Of a stretch of 17,415 nucleotides of DNA, positions 10,739 through 16,614 are shown piece after piece; position 1 is the stretch's first letter, and every line of letters begins with the position of its first letter. The DNA comes from a virus. Its lineage: Duplodnaviria; Heunggongvirae; Uroviricota; Caudoviricetes. Position numbers and translations under genes: made by a program. The DNA is taken from IMG/VR virus record IMGVR_UViG_2724679538_000009; one strand, given 5' to 3'. The notes under the pieces are model-generated. The model had not been told where the DNA came from and searched no databases. It worked only from the letters and a program-made list of their open reading frames with translations.

Positions 10739-11098
10739 ATGAACACAAAAACACGACCCTCAACGCTGCACTGGCAACCGGCCTTGCAGCGGCCTGAAGA
10801 ATACGTCTGCGGGCTGGATGATATTCACCAGGCGATACACATCATTCTGCGCACACCGCGCGGCAGTGATCCTCACAGACCGCTGTTTGGCAGCAACTTG
10901 TGGCACTACATCGATTACCCCATCGAGCGGGCAATCCCGCATGTGGTACGGGAGTCGGTGGAAGCCATCCGCCAGTGGGAACCGCGCTGTCGGTTGCTGA
11001 AGGTGACACCAGTAATCGACGGTGAACATCTGACGTTACGTGTGCAATGGCGCGCCGCTGACGGCGTTATCAACTCAACGGAGGTGTTATGGCGATAG
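10739..11098 (+). CDS. Baseplate wedge protein (P2 gpW / T4 gp25-like)
   Basis: 119 aa; motifs typical of the GPW/gp25 family (RPLFGSNLWHY, WEPRCRLLKV); overlaps the J-like gene start by 10 nt. Confidence 0.8.
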   Translation: MNTKTRPSTLHWQPALQRPEEYVCGLDDIHQAIHIILRTPRGSDPHRPLFGSNLWHYIDYPIERAIPHVVRESVEAIRQWEPRCRLLKVTPVIDGEHLTLRVQWRAADGVINSTEVLWR

Positions 11099-12204
11099 CC
11101 GAACCCAATTTTATTGACCGCGATCCTGCGCAAATTACCAGTGAGATGATTGCGCAATATGAAGATGCCAGCGGTAAAAAACTCTATCCGGCACAGGCTG
11201 AGCGGTTGCTCATCGACCTGTTTGCCTATCGTGAAAACCTTGTACGCATCGCCATTCAGGAAGCGGCGAAACAAAACCTGGTCGCGTATTCCCGCGCGCC
11301 AATGCTGGATTATTTAGGGGAGTTGGTGGGAGTTCACCGTTTGCCTGCGCAGCCTGCAAAAACGACGTTGCAGTTTTCGGTCGTCAGTGCGTATACCAGC
11401 AATATCCTGATTCCCCAGGGGACGCGGGCCAGTGCTTCTGATAGCGTGATGTTCGCCACCGATGAAGATGTTCTGCTTCCGGCCAGGAGTTTGCATATCG
11501 CCGTTCCTGCCACCAGCCTCGCAGCAGGTGAACAGGGCAACGGCTGGCAGCCTGCACAAATTAGCGCACTGGTCGACAGGATTGGTCATTATGACATCAA
11601 CGTAACCAACCTGACTGCGTCAACGGGCGGCTGCGGTGAAGAGAGCGATGACGCATTGCGCCAGCGTATCCAACTGGCACCAGAAAGCTTTAGTAATGCG
11701 GGCAGCTATGGCGCATACCGCTTTCATACGCTTTCTGTTAGCCAGTCGATTATTGACGTTGCAGTACTGGGGCCGGACGAGGGATTGCCAGAAGGCTGCG
11801 TGGAGATCTACCCGCTAACCCTGAACGGACTGCCAGGAATAGAACTGCTCGCGCAAATCGAACAGGAGGTTAGCAAGGAGAAAAAACGTCCGCTGACCGA
11901 CAAAGTGAGTGCGAAATGCGCTCTTCGAGTGCCGTATGAGATCCGTGCTCAGCTAACGCTGTTTACCACCGCCGATCAGGAGACAACGCTGGCTGCGGCG
12001 CGTAAAGCGATTAGCCTCTGGACGCAACAGCGGCAGAAACATCTGGGGCAGGACATTGTGCCAAACCAGATAATCAAAGTGTTACAGGTCGATGGCGTCT
12101 ATGACGTTGCGCTGAATATGCCTACAAAACGTATTTTGCAGGCGCATGAATGGGCGGAATGCACTGCAATAGACGTCACGATTGCCGGAGTCAGCGATGG
12201 ATAA
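11089..12204 (+). CDS. Baseplate J-like protein (P2 gpJ / Mu gp47 family)
   Basis: 371 aa; GGAGG 4-5 nt upstream; position between W-like and I-like genes. Confidence 0.85.
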   Translation: MAIAEPNFIDRDPAQITSEMIAQYEDASGKKLYPAQAERLLIDLFAYRENLVRIAIQEAAKQNLVAYSRAPMLDYLGELVGVHRLPAQPAKTTLQFSVVSAYTSNILIPQGTRASASDSVMFATDEDVLLPARSLHIAVPATSLAAGEQGNGWQPAQISALVDRIGHYDINVTNLTASTGGCGEESDDALRQRIQLAPESFSNAGSYGAYRFHTLSVSQSIIDVAVLGPDEGLPEGCVEIYPLTLNGLPGIELLAQIEQEVSKEKKRPLTDKVSAKCALRVPYEIRAQLTLFTTADQETTLAAARKAISLWTQQRQKHLGQDIVPNQIIKVLQVDGVYDVALNMPTKRILQAHEWAECTAIDVTIAGVSDG

Positions 12205-12916
12205 ATTGCTGCCACCGCCGCCGCTTGCCAGCGATGAGCGTTTTTCGATTCTGGCAAACATCGCCGCCGAGCGTTTTGCCCAACTCGATCTGACGGCGTT
12301 GATGGTTTATCTGGTCGACCTGGTTGATGCTTCGGCATTACCAGCCCTTGCAGAACAATTTCACGTTCAGGGGCTGGAAGGTTGGTTATTTACCACCGAT
12401 GAGCGGGAGAAGCGCGAGTTAATTAAACAAGCCATTGAACTGCATAAATATAAAGGAACAATTTGGGCGGTACGGCGGGTGCTGGAAATACTTTCCTTAC
12501 CCGGAACTATTTCAGAATGGTTTGAATATGGGGGAAGGGCTTATTTTTTTAAGGTAAATATTACACTAGAGGAAAAAGGATTAAATAAAGATGAATTCAA
12601 TGCACTTATCACATTAATTCATGAATATAAAAATGTTCGTTCAAAGCTGGAAAGCATTGTTATTTGGCTTATTAATCGAAGCCCAATACCAGTTATTGGC
12701 AGCGCCATGCAAGGAGGGGAAGTCATTACAGTATTGCCTCCTGTTGCAGAAAGCCTCAGCCAGTCATCAGGAATATTTTTGGCGACGGGTTATTGTGTGG
12801 AGGAATATATCCAACTACTACCTTATCAACCCGATCGCCTTACACAATCCCAACCGATGAAGGTCGGCACAGGATACTGGAGCACCGAAATTATGTCTGT
12901 ATATCCGGAGGAATAA
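12197..12916 (+). CDS. Tail protein I-like (P2 gpI family)
   Basis: 239 aa from ATG 12197 (GGAG 6 nt upstream; the track start is TTG 12182). [17 protein letters not shown] matches the P2 gpI CHKGTIGAIRRVVEPL region as recalled; C-terminal ...SVYPEE resembles the gpI ...VITVYPG end. C-terminal half is AT-rich. Confidence 0.8.
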
Positions 12917-14496
12917 TGGCAAGTGAATTTTTTACAATATTAACTACTGCAGGCAAAGCCAAAATTGCCTCTGCATTGACGGAGCAAAAACAGATCCGTC
13001 TGCAAACTATGGTAGTTGGCGACGGTAATGGTAAATATATCGAACCGACAGAAAGTCAGACTAAAGTAGTCCATGAGGTCTGGCGTGGTCAGCTCAATAC
13101 ATTAAAAATTGCGCCAGATAATCCGGCCTGGGTTATCGCAGAAGCGATTATTCCCGAACAAGTCGGAGGCTGGTATGTACGCGAAGTTGGGTTACTGGAT
13201 ACCGACGGCACGCTGGTCGCTATTGGTAAATTTCCGGAAACCTATAAGCCACGATTACCTGCGGGGGCCAGTAAGCAAATCGTTATACGCGCGGTCATGG
13301 AAGTCACCAATGCAGACGCGGTGACGCTTTTGATCGACCCTTCAGTCGTTGTGGCAACCAGGGAATATGTCGATGACGCGTTGAAAACACATCAGCAATC
13401 ACGAAATCATCCTGATGCGACGCTAACACAAAAAGGTTTTACACTGCTGAGCAATGCGACTAATAGCGATGATGAAACCAAAGCTGCCACACCAAAAGCG
13501 GTAAAAACGGCATATGACCTGGCAAATAGCAAAGCTGCCACCAGTCATAATCATGCCTGGAATCAGATTACTGGTATCCCTGATGGTACACTGACGCAGA
13601 AAGGAGTCGTTAAACTTAACAACACAACAAATAGCACCAGTACAACGGAAGCTGCAACGCCAAGTGCTGTTAAAGCAGCGATGGACAAGGCTATTGCTGC
13701 GGCACCGTCCAGCCATACCCATGCCTGGGGGCAAATAACAGGTATCCCCGACGGTACGCTGACACAAAAAGGGGTCGTGAAACTTAATAATGCGACCAAC
13801 AGCACCAGTACGACGGAAGCTGCAACGCCGAACGCGGTTAAGGCAGCGATGGATAAGGCTATTGCTGCGGAAAGCTGTCCTGTAGGGATGCCTATACCCT
13901 GGCCATCTGATTCTGTACCTTCAGGCTACGCTCTGATGACTGGTCAGACATTTAATAAAACCTCCTATCCCAAACTGGCAATTGCATATCCATCTGGCGT
14001 TATTCCTGATATGCGCGGATGGATAATTAAAGGAAAACCATCCAGTGGGCGCGCTATATTATCTACTGAACTGGATGGAGTTAAATCACATAACCATACG
14101 GGCAGTATTTCTAGTACCAATTTAGGGACAATAACATCTACCTCTACGGACTTAGGAACAAAAACTACAGCTTCATTTAATCATGGAAGTAGAAATACAA
14201 GCACATCTGGAGAACATACACACCGAATACCAACTGATGGTGCAGAAGGTAAAGATGGACCGTCTTTATGGAACAGCCCCAATTCAGATGAGAACTACAG
14301 AGAACCTACTGAGTCTGCTGGTAGTCATTATCATAGTATTACGATTGGCGCCCATGCACATACAATCGCACTGGGAAGTCATACACATAATATTGTGTTA
14401 GGTACACATAATCACTCAATTATCATCAATAACACTGGCAATACAGAAAATACTGTTAAAAACATTGCATTCAATTATATTGTGAGGCTTGCATGA
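12916..14496 (+). CDS. Tail fibre protein (P2 gpH-like N-terminus, repeat-containing shaft, His-box C-terminal tip)
   Basis: 526 aa from ATG 12916 (GGAGG 6 nt upstream). N-terminal ~200 aa closely track P2 gpH as recalled ([41 protein letters not shown]...[14 protein letters not shown]). Contains 56-aa tandem repeats and C-terminal HxH motifs ([32 protein letters not shown]). Confidence 0.85.
13420..13870 (+). repeat. In-frame tandem direct repeats, 168-bp period (about 2.7 copies) inside the tail fibre gene
   Basis: Units begin at 13420, 13588 and 13756, each encoding TLTQKG(V/F)..[27 protein letters not shown]...[12 protein letters not shown]. Copies 2 and 3 are near-identical at DNA level. 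Confidence 0.75.
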
Positions 14497-15200
14497 ATAC
14501 TTTTACTTTTTCCGATAACGCACAAATTTTATCTGTTTTTAATTTTTCACCAGACACACAAGAATTTATTGGTGAGTCCAATGTATATATAGCACCAAAC
14601 ACTGGACTACCGAATTACTGCACATTAACACCACCACCACAAAAAATTGCAGGTTTTACTTCTATATGGTCAATTAATAAATGGGAACTTATTGAAGATC
14701 ATCGAGGCCAAACTGTTTATAACAAAGTTGATGGCAGCCAGATTATTATTAATAAATTGGGTCAATTGCCTGAAACTGTCACCATCATTTCCCCTACCAG
14801 TACTTTTGAGCGTTGGGATGGCGAAAAATGGCAGCCATCAATTGATGATGCTAAACAGGCGAAATGTGCCGAAATCAAAACATTGCGCGACTCCATCACT
14901 ACCGACTACATCATCATCAACGACAATTACTTCCACAGTGATACAAGCAGCCGCATCCAACAACTCTCACTCACAAAAATGGGAGCGGAGAAAAAAATTC
15001 CGCCAGGTTTAATGTGGAAAACTAAAAATAATGGTCTGACTGAGTTAACCAACGAAATCGCTGCCCAGTTTGAATCCGTCACAATGGATCACGATATACG
15101 CTTGTTTGCCAACGCCCAACGCCATATCGCGGCGGTGGAAGCTCTGGACGATATTCAGTCGGTACTCGACTACGATTATTCAACAGGCTGGCAACCATGA
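14493..15200 (+). CDS. Tail fibre assembly protein (lambda Tfa / P2 gpG family)
   Basis: 235 aa; ATGA overlap with the fibre stop. N-terminal region [32 protein letters not shown]...[13 protein letters not shown] parallels lambda Tfa (EFIGEGDAYIPPHTGLP...PPDIPAGF...WHLVEDHRGKTVY) as recalled. Confidence 0.8.
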
Positions 15201-15652
15201 GTAAAACTACAGTCTGGCTCGCTTGCTATAAAGGGCGAACAGAGCACCGGGTTATTGCGAGACTGGCTGACTGGCTTACACGCAAAATCACTCGCGGCAG
15301 TTATTCCCACTGTGAATTAGCCGTAGCACATGGAGAAAAGAGTTACCTTTGTTACTCCGCCTCTCTGCGCGATCGAGGCGTTCGTGGAAAGATAATGCCT
15401 TTACCGCCAGACAAGTGGGATATGCTGCCGCTCCAGGTCAGCCTTCAGGATGTAGAAGCTTTTTTCCGTAAACATGATGGCAAAAAATACGACTGGCGTG
15501 GAGCCTTAGGAATTATCACCGGCAATAAAGAACAGCGCGATCGCCTGTTTTGTAGCGAATTTTGTGCCGAATTTCTGCAATTAAAAGAAAGTTGGCGCTA
15601 TTCCCCAAACCACTTGTACGCTTTAGTTAACAGTTGGCAATATCAACCATAA
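15197..15652 (+). CDS. Putative permuted papain-fold (YiiX/YaeF C92 / LRAT-like) thiol enzyme
   Basis: 151 aa; ATGA-coupled to the tfa stop. His-containing N-terminal motif (GSYSHCELAVAHG) and C-terminal GKKYDW...RLFCSEF resemble the GxxYDF...YCSEV signature of YiiX-type permuted NlpC/P60 proteins as recalled. No transmembrane segment. Confidence 0.4.
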   Translation: MSKTTVWLACYKGRTEHRVIARLADWLTRKITRGSYSHCELAVAHGEKSYLCYSASLRDRGVRGKIMPLPPDKWDMLPLQVSLQDVEAFFRKHDGKKYDWRGALGIITGNKEQRDRLFCSEFCAEFLQLKESWRYSPNHLYALVNSWQYQP

Positions 15653-15657
15653 ACTAC

Positions 15658-15680
15658 GCCGGGCTTCAAGCCCGGCTTTA
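15658..15680 (+). terminator. Terminator-like hairpin ending the tail operon
   Basis: gccgggc-ttcaa-gcccggc stem-loop followed by ttta, 6 nt after the stop of the 151-aa gene. Confidence 0.5.
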
Positions 15681-15796
15681 ATCAGGCTGTATATTCCATC
15701 ACAAACAAAGCACATGCTTATAAATATTCACAGTAATTATATTTCCATATTAACCATCCACTGAGTGAATATAGAAGAATTTAAATACAATAACTA

Positions 15797-15824
15797 TTGC
15801 ATTGTAAATTACATCAAATATAGT
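15797..15824 (+). promoter_or_regulatory. Candidate sigma70 promoter for the glycosyltransferase-like gene
   Basis: TTGCAT, 16-nt spacer, TATAGT within a 180-bp AT-rich spacer about 40 nt upstream of ATG 15866. The spacer contains the palindrome TGTAA-A-TTACA (15803-15813). Hexamer prediction by eye only. Confidence 0.3.
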
Positions 15825-15865
15825 TCACTACTTATATATTTTGCTAATCGCTACAGGGAAATTAC

Positions 15866-16594
15866 ATGTTTATTGTCTCAGTTCTCAGACAAAGTAAGGA
15901 TTTCACTATTAAACATGCACAATGGCTTCACCAGCAGCTGGATGGGTATAATTCCATTTGCATGACGGATGCTTCAGAAATCAAAGGGGTTCAAACCACT
16001 CCATTACTGTATAATTGGCCAGGATGGTGGGCAAAATTAGAGCTATTTAATCCCGAACATCCTGTTCTCGGGAATAAAGATATACTTTATATTGATATTG
16101 ATACTGTAATCGTCGGTGATATTACACAGTTTACTAAAATGAAAAAAGTAACATTACTGAACGACTTCTCGCAGCATGGTTCCAATGCTGCTCCTGCGAC
16201 TGGAATAATGTTCATTCCTGCGGACGCCAAAAAACTTGTCTGGGAAGAGTTTATGAGATCGCCTGAAACTGAAATAAATTCAACCAGAAAGCCGCCATAT
16301 CATGGGGATCAGGGATTTATCGGCAGAGTATGTCATGACGCTGAAAGATGGCAGGATATTTTTCCAGGACAAATTATCAGTTACAAAGCGAATATAGCGA
16401 CGCCTAAAATGATAGGCTTTAATCCTGACTTACACGATGGTAAAGCAAACGGAGAATTGCCATCGGATGCAAAAATTGTATGTTTTCACGGTTCACCTCG
16501 TCCCTGGAACACAGCTCTCCACTGGGTTCCAGGTTTCAGCATAAAAAACACACTCTGCAGCAAATTTAAACAGCTCAAATATTCTCTTCGGTAA
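15866..16594 (+). CDS. GT-A fold glycosyltransferase, GT8-like (DXD and HxxGxxRPW motifs)
   Basis: 242 aa; AGGGAA Shine-Dalgarno upstream. DILYIDIDTVIVGD matches the GT8 DXD region (LgtC KVLYLDIDVLV as recalled) and VCFHGSPRPWN matches the GT8 C-terminal HxxGxxKPW motif. Markedly AT-rich relative to the tail genes; flanked by terminator hairpins. Confidence 0.5.
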   Translation: MFIVSVLRQSKDFTIKHAQWLHQQLDGYNSICMTDASEIKGVQTTPLLYNWPGWWAKLELFNPEHPVLGNKDILYIDIDTVIVGDITQFTKMKKVTLLNDFSQHGSNAAPATGIMFIPADAKKLVWEEFMRSPETEINSTRKPPYHGDQGFIGRVCHDAERWQDIFPGQIISYKANIATPKMIGFNPDLHDGKANGELPSDAKIVCFHGSPRPWNTALHWVPGFSIKNTLCSKFKQLKYSLR

Positions 16595-16614
16595 AAAACT
16601 TTTTTATTGGAAGG

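What the first reader, a model, noticed from the sequence alone, without database searches (positions are those of the whole stretch)
12916..14496. Mosaic tail fibre: P2 gpH-like anchor, expandable 168-bp tandem repeats and a T-even-like His-box receptor-binding tip
The N-terminus is P2 gpH-like. The shaft contains about 2.7 near-identical 56-aa repeats that could expand or contract by slipped recombination. The C-terminal region carries repeated HxH motifs (SHNH, EHTH, SHYH, AHAH, SHTH, THNH) reminiscent of the iron-coordinating His boxes of T4 gp37-type tips. The following chaperone is lambda Tfa-like. This combination indicates recombination between different fibre lineages and defines host range.
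Basis: partly seen in the sequence, partly recalled or inferred. Interest (0 to 1): 0.5.

Follow-up and report, generated by a model that had tools for sequence, protein, structure and literature searches.

The report
Modular tail fibre with swappable tip
This gene encodes the target-recognising fibre of a head-less phage-tail gene cluster in Escherichia fergusonii; it has a P2-type anchor, a shaft whose repeat number differs between strains and a T4 gp37-type tip exchanged together with half of its chaperone gene, which is a clear example of a known kind of mosaic, not a new one.

Summary
Window 12916-14496 is an intact 526-aa tail-fibre gene with three modules.

- **Anchor (aa 1-165):** P2 gpH-type. 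PF12571 scores 5e-59, and aa 24-264 are 48% identical to gpH.
- **Shaft (aa 166-318):** 2.7 units of 56 aa, each a PF03406 motif plus an HxH.
- **Tip (aa 319-526):** homologous to the crystallised T4 gp37 tip (2XGF, E 5e-67, about 56% identity). Six of gp37's seven iron-binding HxH motifs are aligned.

One correction is needed. Only units 2 and 3 are near-identical, at 95% aa but 84% nt, and unit 1 is about 62% identical to them.

Alleles at the same chromosomal locus carry 2 to 6 units in exact 56-aa steps. They also carry at least four unrelated tip types.

Against a second E. fergusonii allele, identity is 97% up to nt 13870. It is nil over 13871-14928, which covers the tip plus the lambda-Tfa-like N-domain of the chaperone. 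It then returns to 93%. That cassette is AT-rich (GC3 0.27-0.32).

The fibre sits in a Mu-ordered tail-plus-lysis cluster next to lysC. The syntenic E. coli and Salmonella (STM4198-4219) loci have no head genes there, so this is a candidate R-type tailocin.

Mosaic fibres of this kind are well known, so this is a new member of a known kind.

The parts
12182..12916 (+). gpI-like baseplate wedge protein, the probable docking partner of the fibre anchor. Its C-terminal part (from about 12701) co-varies with the fibre anchor in some E. coli alleles.
   Evidence: PF09684 Tail_P2_I at 1e-32. Window vs E. coli S10 is 96.7% identical up to 12700, then diverges. GC falls to 0.38 over 12350-12800.
12916..13410 (+). 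Fibre N-terminal anchor domain (aa 1-165), P2 gpH type.
   Evidence: PF12571 at 5e-59. 48% identity to P2 gpH. No similarity to the Mu S N-terminus. 100% identical to E. fergusonii allele P0013. This is the only part that AF2 models with confidence, at pLDDT 60-87.
13411..13869 (+). Shaft of 2.7 tandem 168-nt / 56-aa units (13411-13578, 13579-13746, 13747-13869). Each unit is a PF03406 motif followed, in the two complete units, by an S-H-x-H-A-W metal-site motif.
   Evidence: Copy number is 2-6 in alleles at the same locus.
13870..14496 (+). gp37/Stf-type receptor-binding tip (aa 319-526 plus stop). It comprises a collar domain (Pfam Collar aa 324-370, nt 13885-14025), a proximal needle with SHNH (14089-14097) and EHTH (14215-14223), a head, and return strands with four HxH (14326-14415). 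It ends in the conserved [18 protein letters not shown].
   Evidence: PDB 2XGF at E 4.9e-67 over aa 317-526. T4 gp37 812-1026 at 56% identity. Lambda orf-314 at 48%. Tip alignment.
14209..14325 (+). Hypervariable distal head (aa 432-470), the predicted receptor-contact region. It aligns with T4 gp37 residues about 932-965 but has no sequence similarity to them.
   Evidence: No DNA match to E. coli LWY24 over 14211-14330. Replaced at equal length in E. coli 2016C-3878. 97% identical only to E. albertii P0001. The T4 tip residues critical for function map here (PMC6957217).
13871..14928 (+). Exchange cassette made of the fibre tip plus the N-terminal (Tfa-like) domain of the chaperone. It is AT-rich relative to its flanks.
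   Evidence: Window vs E. fergusonii L089: 97.1% up to 13870, no match over 13871-14928, 92.8% from 14929. GC is 0.39 against about 0.50 in the flanks. GC3 is 0.27 (tip) and 0.32 (Tfa N-domain) against 0.43 and 0.50.
14493..15200 (+). Tail-fibre assembly chaperone (235 aa), with a lambda Tfa / T4 gp38-like N-domain (aa 1 to about 135-145) and a DUF4376 C-domain shared by all cassette types at this locus.
   Evidence: Caudo_TAP at 23.7 bits (cut-off 22.1) and DUF4376 at 3.9e-13. phrog_105 and phrog_1807. 36% identity to lambda Tfa, 26% to gp38, none to P2 G or Mu U. The C-domain is 65% identical to the L089 chaperone and the last 45 aa are identical.
15197..15652 (+). Conserved 151-aa ORF, translationally coupled to the chaperone and present downstream of every fibre/chaperone variant at this locus. 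Its function is unknown.
   Evidence: 95% identical in E. coli S10, 76% in Salmonella STM4198. No Pfam, NCBIfam or PDB hit. Matches phrog_1128.

Best explanation
This is the receptor-binding tail fibre of a chromosomal contractile-tail cluster of Escherichia fergusonii. The cluster has Mu-like gene order, P2-like baseplate proteins and a lysis cassette, and the syntenic loci hold no head genes.

The protein is built from three modules. The P2-gpH-type N-terminal domain docks the trimer to the gpJ/gpI baseplate wedge (inferred from homology and gene order). The shaft consists of 56-aa units, and their number sets its length. Units are gained and lost by unequal recombination or slippage between tandem copies, shown by 2-6 units in sister alleles with recently duplicated units.

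The C-terminal 208 aa are a true homologue of the T4 gp37 / lambda Stf tip. They comprise a collar, an interwoven needle predicted to be stapled by six HxH metal sites, and a hypervariable head that contacts the receptor (function inferred).

Folding of that tip needs the adjacent chaperone. The chaperone's Tfa/gp38-like N-domain is matched to the tip type, and its DUF4376 C-domain is generic (inferred).

Specificity evolves at three nested left-hand joints: inside gpI (about 12700), at the end of the last repeat (13870) and at the EHTH motif before the head (about 14210). For the whole-tip and whole-fibre swaps there is one recurrent right-hand joint at the chaperone's inter-domain boundary (about 14896-14929). 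Conserved flanks therefore let whole tip-plus-chaperone-N-domain cassettes be exchanged by homologous recombination.
For: - Domain content and homologies.
- HxH alignment to the iron-binding histidines of gp37: with PMC6957217 and PMC6116203.
- Copy-number series 470/526/582 aa and 442/498/554 aa with the same anchor.
- Recent duplicates in relatives (96% nt, exact runs of 77-107 nt).
- Same chromosomal locus in E. albertii, E. fergusonii, E. coli and Salmonella.
- Sharp identity breaks.
- Compositional step at both cassette ends.
- Tip type and chaperone N-domain co-vary: the P2-type tip comes with a 217-aa chaperone lacking the Tfa-like domain.
- Exact protein present in E. fergusonii records.
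Against: - No experiment bears on assembly, metal binding, receptor or killing.
- The AF2 monomer model is uninformative for the shaft and tip (mean pLDDT 43.9), so the trimeric fold rests on sequence homology alone.
- The window's own repeat units have diverged (84% nt, longest exact run 17 nt), and 141 E. coli genomes with this allele show no copy-number change. Ongoing expansion in this particular allele is therefore not demonstrated.
- The head-swap alleles of E. coli also show lowered identity (84%) through the chaperone and ORF151, so the right-hand joint is not equally sharp in every comparison.
- Some E. coli copies of the cluster carry pseudogenes or IS elements.
Confidence: 0.85

Rival explanations
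1. The fibre belongs to an inert, decaying prophage remnant. Its modular variation is a fossil of past phage recombination and has no present function.
For: In E. coli relatives the fibre is frameshifted (LWY24), the tape-measure gene has an internal stop (2016C-3878) and an ISEc53 element is inserted (IAI39, CE10). Only 162-195 of 5426 complete E. coli genomes carry the cluster. No paper describing particle production from this locus was found.
Against: - Every tail, lysis and fibre ORF in the window is intact.
- The cluster occupies the same lysC-adjacent site in Escherichia species and Salmonella.
- Repeat units 2 and 3 differ mostly at synonymous sites (95% aa vs 84% nt), which indicates purifying selection.
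- Tips are replaced in frame and at equal length, with matching chaperone domains. A dead gene would not show that.
Confidence: 0.2
2. The differences in unit number arise by import of whole shafts from other alleles (allelic replacement), not by in-situ slippage or unequal crossing-over. On this view the repeats are a fixed structural feature and not an expandable one.
For: Shaft sequences differ between lineages: window units are 79-86% nt identical to E. albertii units but 98% to E. fergusonii units. Recombination at this locus is clearly frequent. Copy number is invariant in 141 E. coli genomes.
Against: In E. fergusonii P0013, units 3 and 4 are 96% identical with a 107-nt exact run, and both are 98% identical to the window's unit 3. 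That is the signature of a local duplication of that unit. E. albertii alleles of 526 and 582 aa differ by one unit in otherwise near-identical proteins.
Confidence: 0.25
3. The tip was not taken from a T-even phage. It belongs to the gp37/Stf tip family that circulates among temperate enterobacterial phages and prophages (lambdoid Stf, P2-like Salmonella phages), and the likeness to T4 is family-level only.
For: - Identity to T4 gp37 is 56%, to lambda Stf 48%, and to other coliphage fibres 60-62%.
- The same anchor-plus-repeats-plus-gp37-type-tip architecture occurs in P2-like Salmonella phages SEN4/5, RE2010 and STYP1 and in coliphage Chuche, and in phrog_295.
- A Salmonella allele at the same locus has the same tip type with a 68%-identical chaperone.
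Against: The cassette is markedly AT-rich (GC3 0.27-0.32). That suits an AT-rich donor such as a T-even phage, though it does not prove one.
Confidence: 0.6
4. The cluster is the tail module of a complete, head-containing Mu-like or P2-like prophage, so the fibre serves infection and not killing.
For: The window starts at the Mor gene, so its left flank is not visible. Close homologues of the fibre occur in bona fide P2-like phages.
Against: In E. coli LWY24 (95.6% identical and collinear) and in Salmonella SARB27, the Mor gene abuts lysC, and the right end abuts RlaP / slipin / yjbD or metabolic genes. There is no capsid, terminase, integrase or replication gene. E. fergusonii and E. albertii show the same right flank.
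Confidence: 0.05

Closest known systems
Phage P2 tail fibre gpH (with baseplate gpI/gpJ)
   Same: The N-terminal PF12571 domain and the first PF03406 repeats are 48% identical over aa 24-264. The gene lies directly downstream of gpJ- and gpI-like genes.
   Different: The P2 repeats lack the 12-aa HxH-containing insert. The P2 C-terminal tip and its gpG chaperone are absent here (no similarity). A sister E. fergusonii allele does carry the P2-type last 64 aa (59% identity).
Phage T4 long-tail-fibre tip, gp37 residues 811-1026 (PDB 2XGF), with chaperone gp38
   Same: Full-length alignment of the collar, needle and C-terminal strands at 56% identity, E 5e-67. Six of seven HxH iron sites are aligned. 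The chaperone N-domain is 26% identical to gp38.
   Different: One HxH is lost (T4 HTH 915-917 corresponds to FNH here). The head sequence is unrelated. The tip is fused to a 318-aa P2-type anchor and shaft, not to a 1026-aa T4 distal half-fibre. The chaperone carries an extra DUF4376 domain.
Phage lambda side tail fibre Stf (orf-401/orf-314) and Tfa
   Same: PF03406 repeats are followed by a gp37-type tip (48% identity over aa 306-526). Tfa is 36% identical to the chaperone over aa 3-135.
   Different: Lambda has a longer needle (8 HxH) and a different N-terminal attachment to a siphovirus tail. The Tfa C-terminus is unrelated to DUF4376.
Carotovoricin Er of Pectobacterium and other R-type tailocins with exchangeable fibre loci
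   Same: A tail-plus-lysis cluster conserved at a fixed chromosomal site across a genus. The fibre locus is hypervariable and exchanged by homologous recombination through conserved flanks (PMC13195805; compare).
   Different: No DNA invertase or inverted alternative tip is present in the window. Particle production and killing have not been demonstrated for this cluster. Sequence relatedness to carotovoricin was not tested.
Salmonella LT2 STM4198-STM4219 phage-tail cluster (fibre STM4200)
   Same: Orthologous cluster at the same lysC-adjacent site with the same gene order. The fibre has the same anchor (65% identity over aa 1-262), and in serovar Infantis it has a gp37-type tip with a 68%-identical chaperone. 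STM4200 is allele-specific enough to serve as a Typhimurium qPCR marker (PMC6201931).
   Different: The Salmonella cluster carries a gtrABC O-antigen glucosylation operon inserted between the V and W genes. Most Salmonella alleles have a Gly-rich tip (PF21722).

Membership tests
P2 gpH-type tail fibre | N-terminal 'phage tail-collar fibre' domain (PF12571) homologous to the gpH N-terminus | tested here: met
   PF12571 at 5.3e-59 over aa 1-149. 48% identity to gpH, E 1e-67.
P2 gpH-type tail fibre | Encoded immediately downstream of gpJ- and gpI-like baseplate wedge genes | tested here: met
   Baseplate_J at 11089-12204 and Tail_P2_I at 12182-12916, with a 1-nt stop/start overlap with the fibre gene.
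P2 gpH-type tail fibre | P2-type C-terminal receptor-binding end and a gpG/Mu-U-type chaperone | tested here: not met
   No similarity beyond aa 264 to gpH. The chaperone has no similarity to P2 G or Mu U.
T4 gp37 / lambda Stf-type receptor-binding tip | Collar domain followed by a needle that aligns over the full crystallised fragment | tested here: met
   PF07484 at 8.5e-11. 2XGF chain residues 25-242 align with aa 317-526, E 4.9e-67.
T4 gp37 / lambda Stf-type receptor-binding tip | Serial HxH motifs at the positions of the iron-coordinating histidines | tested here: met
   Six of T4's seven HxH are aligned, including H434/H436 with H929/H931 (PMC6957217). The histidines of the five motifs at 392-394, 471-473, 480-482, 489-491 and 498-500 are invariant in 16 homologues; the EHTH motif at 434-436 is not invariant and is absent from several alleles.
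T4 gp37 / lambda Stf-type receptor-binding tip | Interwoven homotrimeric needle containing bound Fe ions | not testable with these tools
   Only a monomer prediction was possible and it failed for this region, with pLDDT about 30. The Foldseek hit to 2XGF is sequence-driven, rmsd 38.
Lambda Tfa / T4 gp38 tail-fibre assembly chaperone | Sequence homology to Tfa/gp38 and position directly after the fibre gene | tested here: met
   36% identity to Tfa over aa 3-135, E 4e-32. 26% identity to gp38, E 2e-10. Caudo_TAP scores 23.7 bits against a cut-off of 22.1. ATGA stop/start overlap.
Lambda Tfa / T4 gp38 tail-fibre assembly chaperone | Homology over the full length, including the C-terminal part | tested here: not met
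   aa 119-226 are DUF4376. There is no alignment to the Tfa or gp38 C-termini.
R-type tailocin | Complete contractile-tail module with a lysis cassette | tested here: met
   Present are a Mor activator, holin, SLT transglycosylase, Gp37, sheath, tube, assembly chaperone, tape measure, gpU-, X-, D-, V-, W-, J- and I-like proteins, fibre and chaperone.
R-type tailocin | No capsid, packaging, integration or replication genes at the locus | tested here: inconclusive
   This holds in the syntenic E. coli (L001) and Salmonella (L092) loci, which are flanked by lysC and by yjbD or metabolic genes. The window itself ends at the Mor gene, so its own left flank is unseen.
R-type tailocin | Released particles kill related bacteria | not testable with these tools
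   This needs induction, electron microscopy and spot assays. No paper on this locus was found.

The most novel reading that the evidence does not exclude
The lysC-adjacent, Mu-ordered tail cluster shared by Escherichia fergusonii, E. albertii, some E. coli and Salmonella (STM4198-4219) is a functional, so far uncharacterised R-type tailocin. Its target range would be re-programmed in nature in two ways. The first is plug-in cassettes consisting of a fibre tip plus only the N-terminal domain of a two-domain chaperone. The second is stepwise change of shaft length in 56-aa metal-clamped units.
Probability: 0.4. Interest if true: 0.6.

Novelty: new member of a known kind. Interest (0 to 1): 0.35.

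Why it matters
The mosaic itself illustrates a principle known since the P2, lambda and T4 fibre comparisons of the early 1990s, so it does not change understanding.

Its practical value lies in how precisely the module boundaries can be read from natural alleles at one locus. They fall at the end of the last repeat, at the EHTH motif before the head, and at the inter-domain boundary of the chaperone. These are ready-made splice points for engineering fibres of tailocins or phages against Escherichia and Salmonella. They also suggest that the Tfa/gp38-like N-domain of the chaperone is the tip-specific part and that DUF4376 is generic.

The context may matter more than the fibre. It is a conserved head-less tail cluster in enteric pathogens and commensals, with a hypervariable fibre. 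If it proves to be an active tailocin, it would shape strain competition in the gut.

Tried and rejected
- **AlphaFold2 monomer of the full fibre** with a 16-sequence alignment gave mean pLDDT 43.9. Only the N-domain was usable.
- **Foldseek against the PDB** returned 2XGF only through sequence (rmsd 38). It also gave weak N-domain hits to other phage fibre or adaptor proteins (9h4p_BD, 8jou_a), which I do not rely on.
- **A profile search of the PDB** with an N-domain alignment found no solved relative.
- **NCBIfam** gave nothing for the fibre, chaperone, ORF151 or ORF242.
- **PDB sequence searches** of the chaperone, ORF151 and ORF242 gave nothing.
- **The species-representative genome scan** did not contain the exact allele. 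It mostly returned lambda Stf from contaminating 48-kb lambda contigs.
- **Seven literature searches** found no description of this lysC-adjacent cluster as a tailocin. The E. coli ST131 'tailocin' paper concerns a different, complete P2-like prophage.
- **An invertible-segment mechanism** as in Mu or carotovoricin was considered and rejected, because there is no invertase or inverted tip copy in the window.
- **The figure of 1631 E. coli genomes** with any match to the window was rejected as a measure of prevalence. Only 162 hold at least 80% of the window, and 195 match the gpI/fibre junction.
Full report
**What is there**

Window 12916-14496 (+) is an intact 526-codon ORF. Its ATG is preceded by GGAGG, and it overlaps the stop of the upstream gpI-like gene by one base. 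Its own stop overlaps the ATG of the next gene.

Pfam finds PF12571 (phage tail-collar fibre, N-terminal; aa 1-149, 5e-59), three PF03406 fibre repeats and a Collar domain at aa 324-370. PHROGs places the protein in large tail-fibre families, with phrog_295 at 2e-218. The exact protein is already in public databases as 'phage tail protein [Escherichia fergusonii]', and the exact chaperone sequence occurs on 207 contigs, among them E. fergusonii genomes. The window is therefore E. fergusonii chromosome.

**The three modules**

- **Anchor.** aa 24-264 are 48% identical to P2 gpH (E 1e-67). Mu S shares only the repeat motif. No solved structure of this domain exists by sequence or profile search.
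- **Shaft.** The units are aa 166-221, 222-277 and 278-318, that is 2.7 units of 56 aa or 168 nt. Units 2 and 3 are 95% identical in protein but only 84% in DNA, with a longest exact run of 17 nt. Unit 1 is about 62% identical to them. TRF accordingly reports 2.0 copies at 82%. Compared with P2 gpH, each complete unit carries an extra 12-aa segment holding an S-H-x-H-A-W motif.
- **Tip.** aa 317-526 align end to end with the crystallised T4 gp37 tip (2XGF, E 4.9e-67). Identity is 56% to gp37 812-1026 and 48% to lambda Stf orf-314.

T4 has seven HxH motifs in the tip, each forming an octahedral iron site in the trimer (PMC6957217; PMC6116203). The query keeps six, and T4 HTH 915-917 corresponds to FNH. 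Query H434/H436 align with T4 H929/H931, which precede the receptor-binding tip residues 933-949. In the query the equivalent head (aa 432-470) is unrelated in sequence to T4.

**The chaperone**

The 235-aa product of 14493-15200 is 36% identical to lambda Tfa over aa 3-135 (E 4e-32) and 26% to the gp38 N-terminus. It is unrelated to P2 G and Mu U. Its C-terminal 100 aa are DUF4376.

**Comparative evidence for expandable repeats**

Among the best 120 database homologues, proteins with the same anchor (94-100% identical) fall into exact 56-aa length series.

- With the gp37-type tip the lengths are 470, 526 and 582 aa, corresponding to 2, 3 and 4 units.
- A second series of 442, 498 and 554 aa carries 4, 5 and 6 units: the 442- and 498-aa proteins have the P2-type tip, and the 554-aa proteins have a further tip type.

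E. albertii P0001 (4 units) and E. fergusonii P0013 (5 units) are encoded at the same chromosomal locus as the window gene. Their extra units are 96% identical in DNA to a neighbour, with exact runs of 77 and 107 nt. Both duplicated E. fergusonii units are 98% identical to the window's unit 3. These are therefore recent local duplications.

By contrast, all 141 E. coli genomes that match at least 80% of this gene keep three units. The array is expandable as a class, but this diverged copy is not obviously unstable.

**Comparative evidence for mosaicism**

Segment by segment, the anchor and shaft are 100% identical to E. fergusonii P0013, which has a different tip. The head is 97% identical only to E. 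albertii P0001. P0013's last 64 aa are 59% identical to the end of P2 gpH, and its chaperone (217 aa) shares only the DUF4376 domain.

DNA comparisons give the following break points.

| Compared with | High identity | Break | Identity resumes |
|---|---|---|---|
| E. fergusonii L089 | 97.1% up to 13870 | no match over 13871-14928 | 92.8% from 14929 |
| E. coli S10 | 96.7% up to 12700, inside gpI | divergent or no match to 14895 | 89% from 14896 |
| E. coli LWY24 | 95.6% up to 14210 | no match across the head, 14211-14330 | 84% from 14331 |

In E. coli 2016C-3878 the head is replaced at exactly equal length, with only four differences in aa 1-401. E. coli S10 and most Salmonella alleles carry a Gly-rich tip, which gives at least four tip types at this locus.

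The tip plus chaperone-N-domain cassette is compositionally distinct. Its GC is 0.39 against about 0.50 in the flanks. GC3 is 0.27 and 0.32 inside the cassette, against 0.43 upstream and 0.50 downstream.

**Context**

The window holds a Mor activator, holin, SLT transglycosylase, Mu Gp37-like protein, sheath, tube, assembly chaperone, tape measure, and gpU-, X-, D-, V-, W-, J- and I-like proteins, followed by the fibre and chaperone.

In E. coli LWY24 (collinear, 95.6% identical) and in Salmonella Infantis SARB27, the Mor gene abuts lysC. No head, packaging, integrase or replication gene is present. The Salmonella version corresponds to STM4198-STM4219 of LT2. This is the architecture of an R-type tailocin, but function is untested and I found no paper on it.

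Some E. coli copies are degraded. Only 162-195 of 5426 complete E. coli genomes carry the cluster.

The closest conceptual precedent is carotovoricin in Pectobacterium, where a conserved tailocin cluster exchanges its fibre locus genus-wide by homologous recombination (PMC13195805).

**Mechanism proposed**

- **Shown:** module homologies, copy-number polymorphism, break points, and co-variation of tip type with the chaperone N-domain.
- **Inferred:** the anchor docks to gpI/gpJ; HxH motifs clamp the trimer with metal (two shaft sites plus six tip sites); the head binds the receptor; the Tfa-like N-domain is the tip-specific folding factor; the conserved repeat end and DUF4376 sequence serve as recombination flanks.

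**Verdict**

Three corrections apply.

1. Only two units are near-identical, and only at protein level.
2. The tip is gp37/Stf-family and not specifically T-even. The same three-module architecture already exists in P2-like Salmonella phages and a coliphage.
3. The chaperone is Tfa-like only in its N-terminal half.

Mosaic fibres are textbook material, so this is a new, well-resolved member of a known kind. The less ordinary element is the tail-only cluster in which it sits.

Noticed in passing
window 15677-16614 (ORF 15866-16594, +): A 938-bp low-GC (0.37) segment holds a 242-aa ORF. It is absent from the E. coli LWY24 and E. fergusonii L089 loci but present in E. albertii L088. It matches phrog_1962 ('glycosyltransferase', 3e-98) but has no Pfam, NCBIfam or PDB hit. 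A receptor-modifying or self-protection gene next to a killing fibre is conceivable, but this was not tested.
   Followed up: partly
window 15197-15652 (+): A 151-aa ORF whose start overlaps the end of the chaperone gene is conserved behind every fibre/chaperone variant at this locus in Escherichia (95% identical in E. coli S10) and in Salmonella (STM4198, 76%). It matches phrog_1128, whose label 'enoyl-CoA hydratase-like' looks unreliable. It has no Pfam or PDB hit, and its role in fibre assembly or otherwise is unknown.
   Followed up: partly
window 12350-12916 (C-terminal part of the gpI-like gene): GC drops to 0.38 here. Identity to E. coli S10 breaks at 12700, inside gpI, so the C-terminal 70 or so aa of gpI are exchanged together with the fibre anchor. 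That is what would be expected if they are the contacting surfaces.
   Followed up: partly
L092 17227-20062 (Salmonella Infantis SARB27; STM4204-4206 in LT2): In Salmonella a gtrABC-type O-antigen glucosylation operon is inserted inside the orthologous tail cluster, between the V-like and W-like baseplate genes.
   Followed up: no
L001 26933-28180; L091 1-558; hits H37-H41: E. coli copies of the cluster show decay. The fibre gene is split in LWY24, the tape-measure gene has an internal stop in 2016C-3878, and an ISEc53 (ISL3-family) element is inserted in IAI39, CE10 and others.
   Followed up: no
L016-L025, L072 (genome contigs): Contigs of about 48.4 kb and smaller fragments, in assemblies labelled Pseudomonas, Shewanella, Neobacillus, Paenibacillus and others, carry an identical lambda-Stf-like match (48% over aa 167-526). 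These look like phage lambda control-DNA contamination. L008, a 400-bp contig in a Corallococcus assembly, is 99% identical to fibre aa 138-270 and is likewise probably contamination.
   Followed up: no
window 15658-15676: A perfect G+C-rich hairpin (GCCGGGCTTGAAGCCCGGC) sits just after the ORF151 stop, exactly at the left edge of the ORF242 insertion. It scored as terminator-like on the minus strand only.
   Followed up: no
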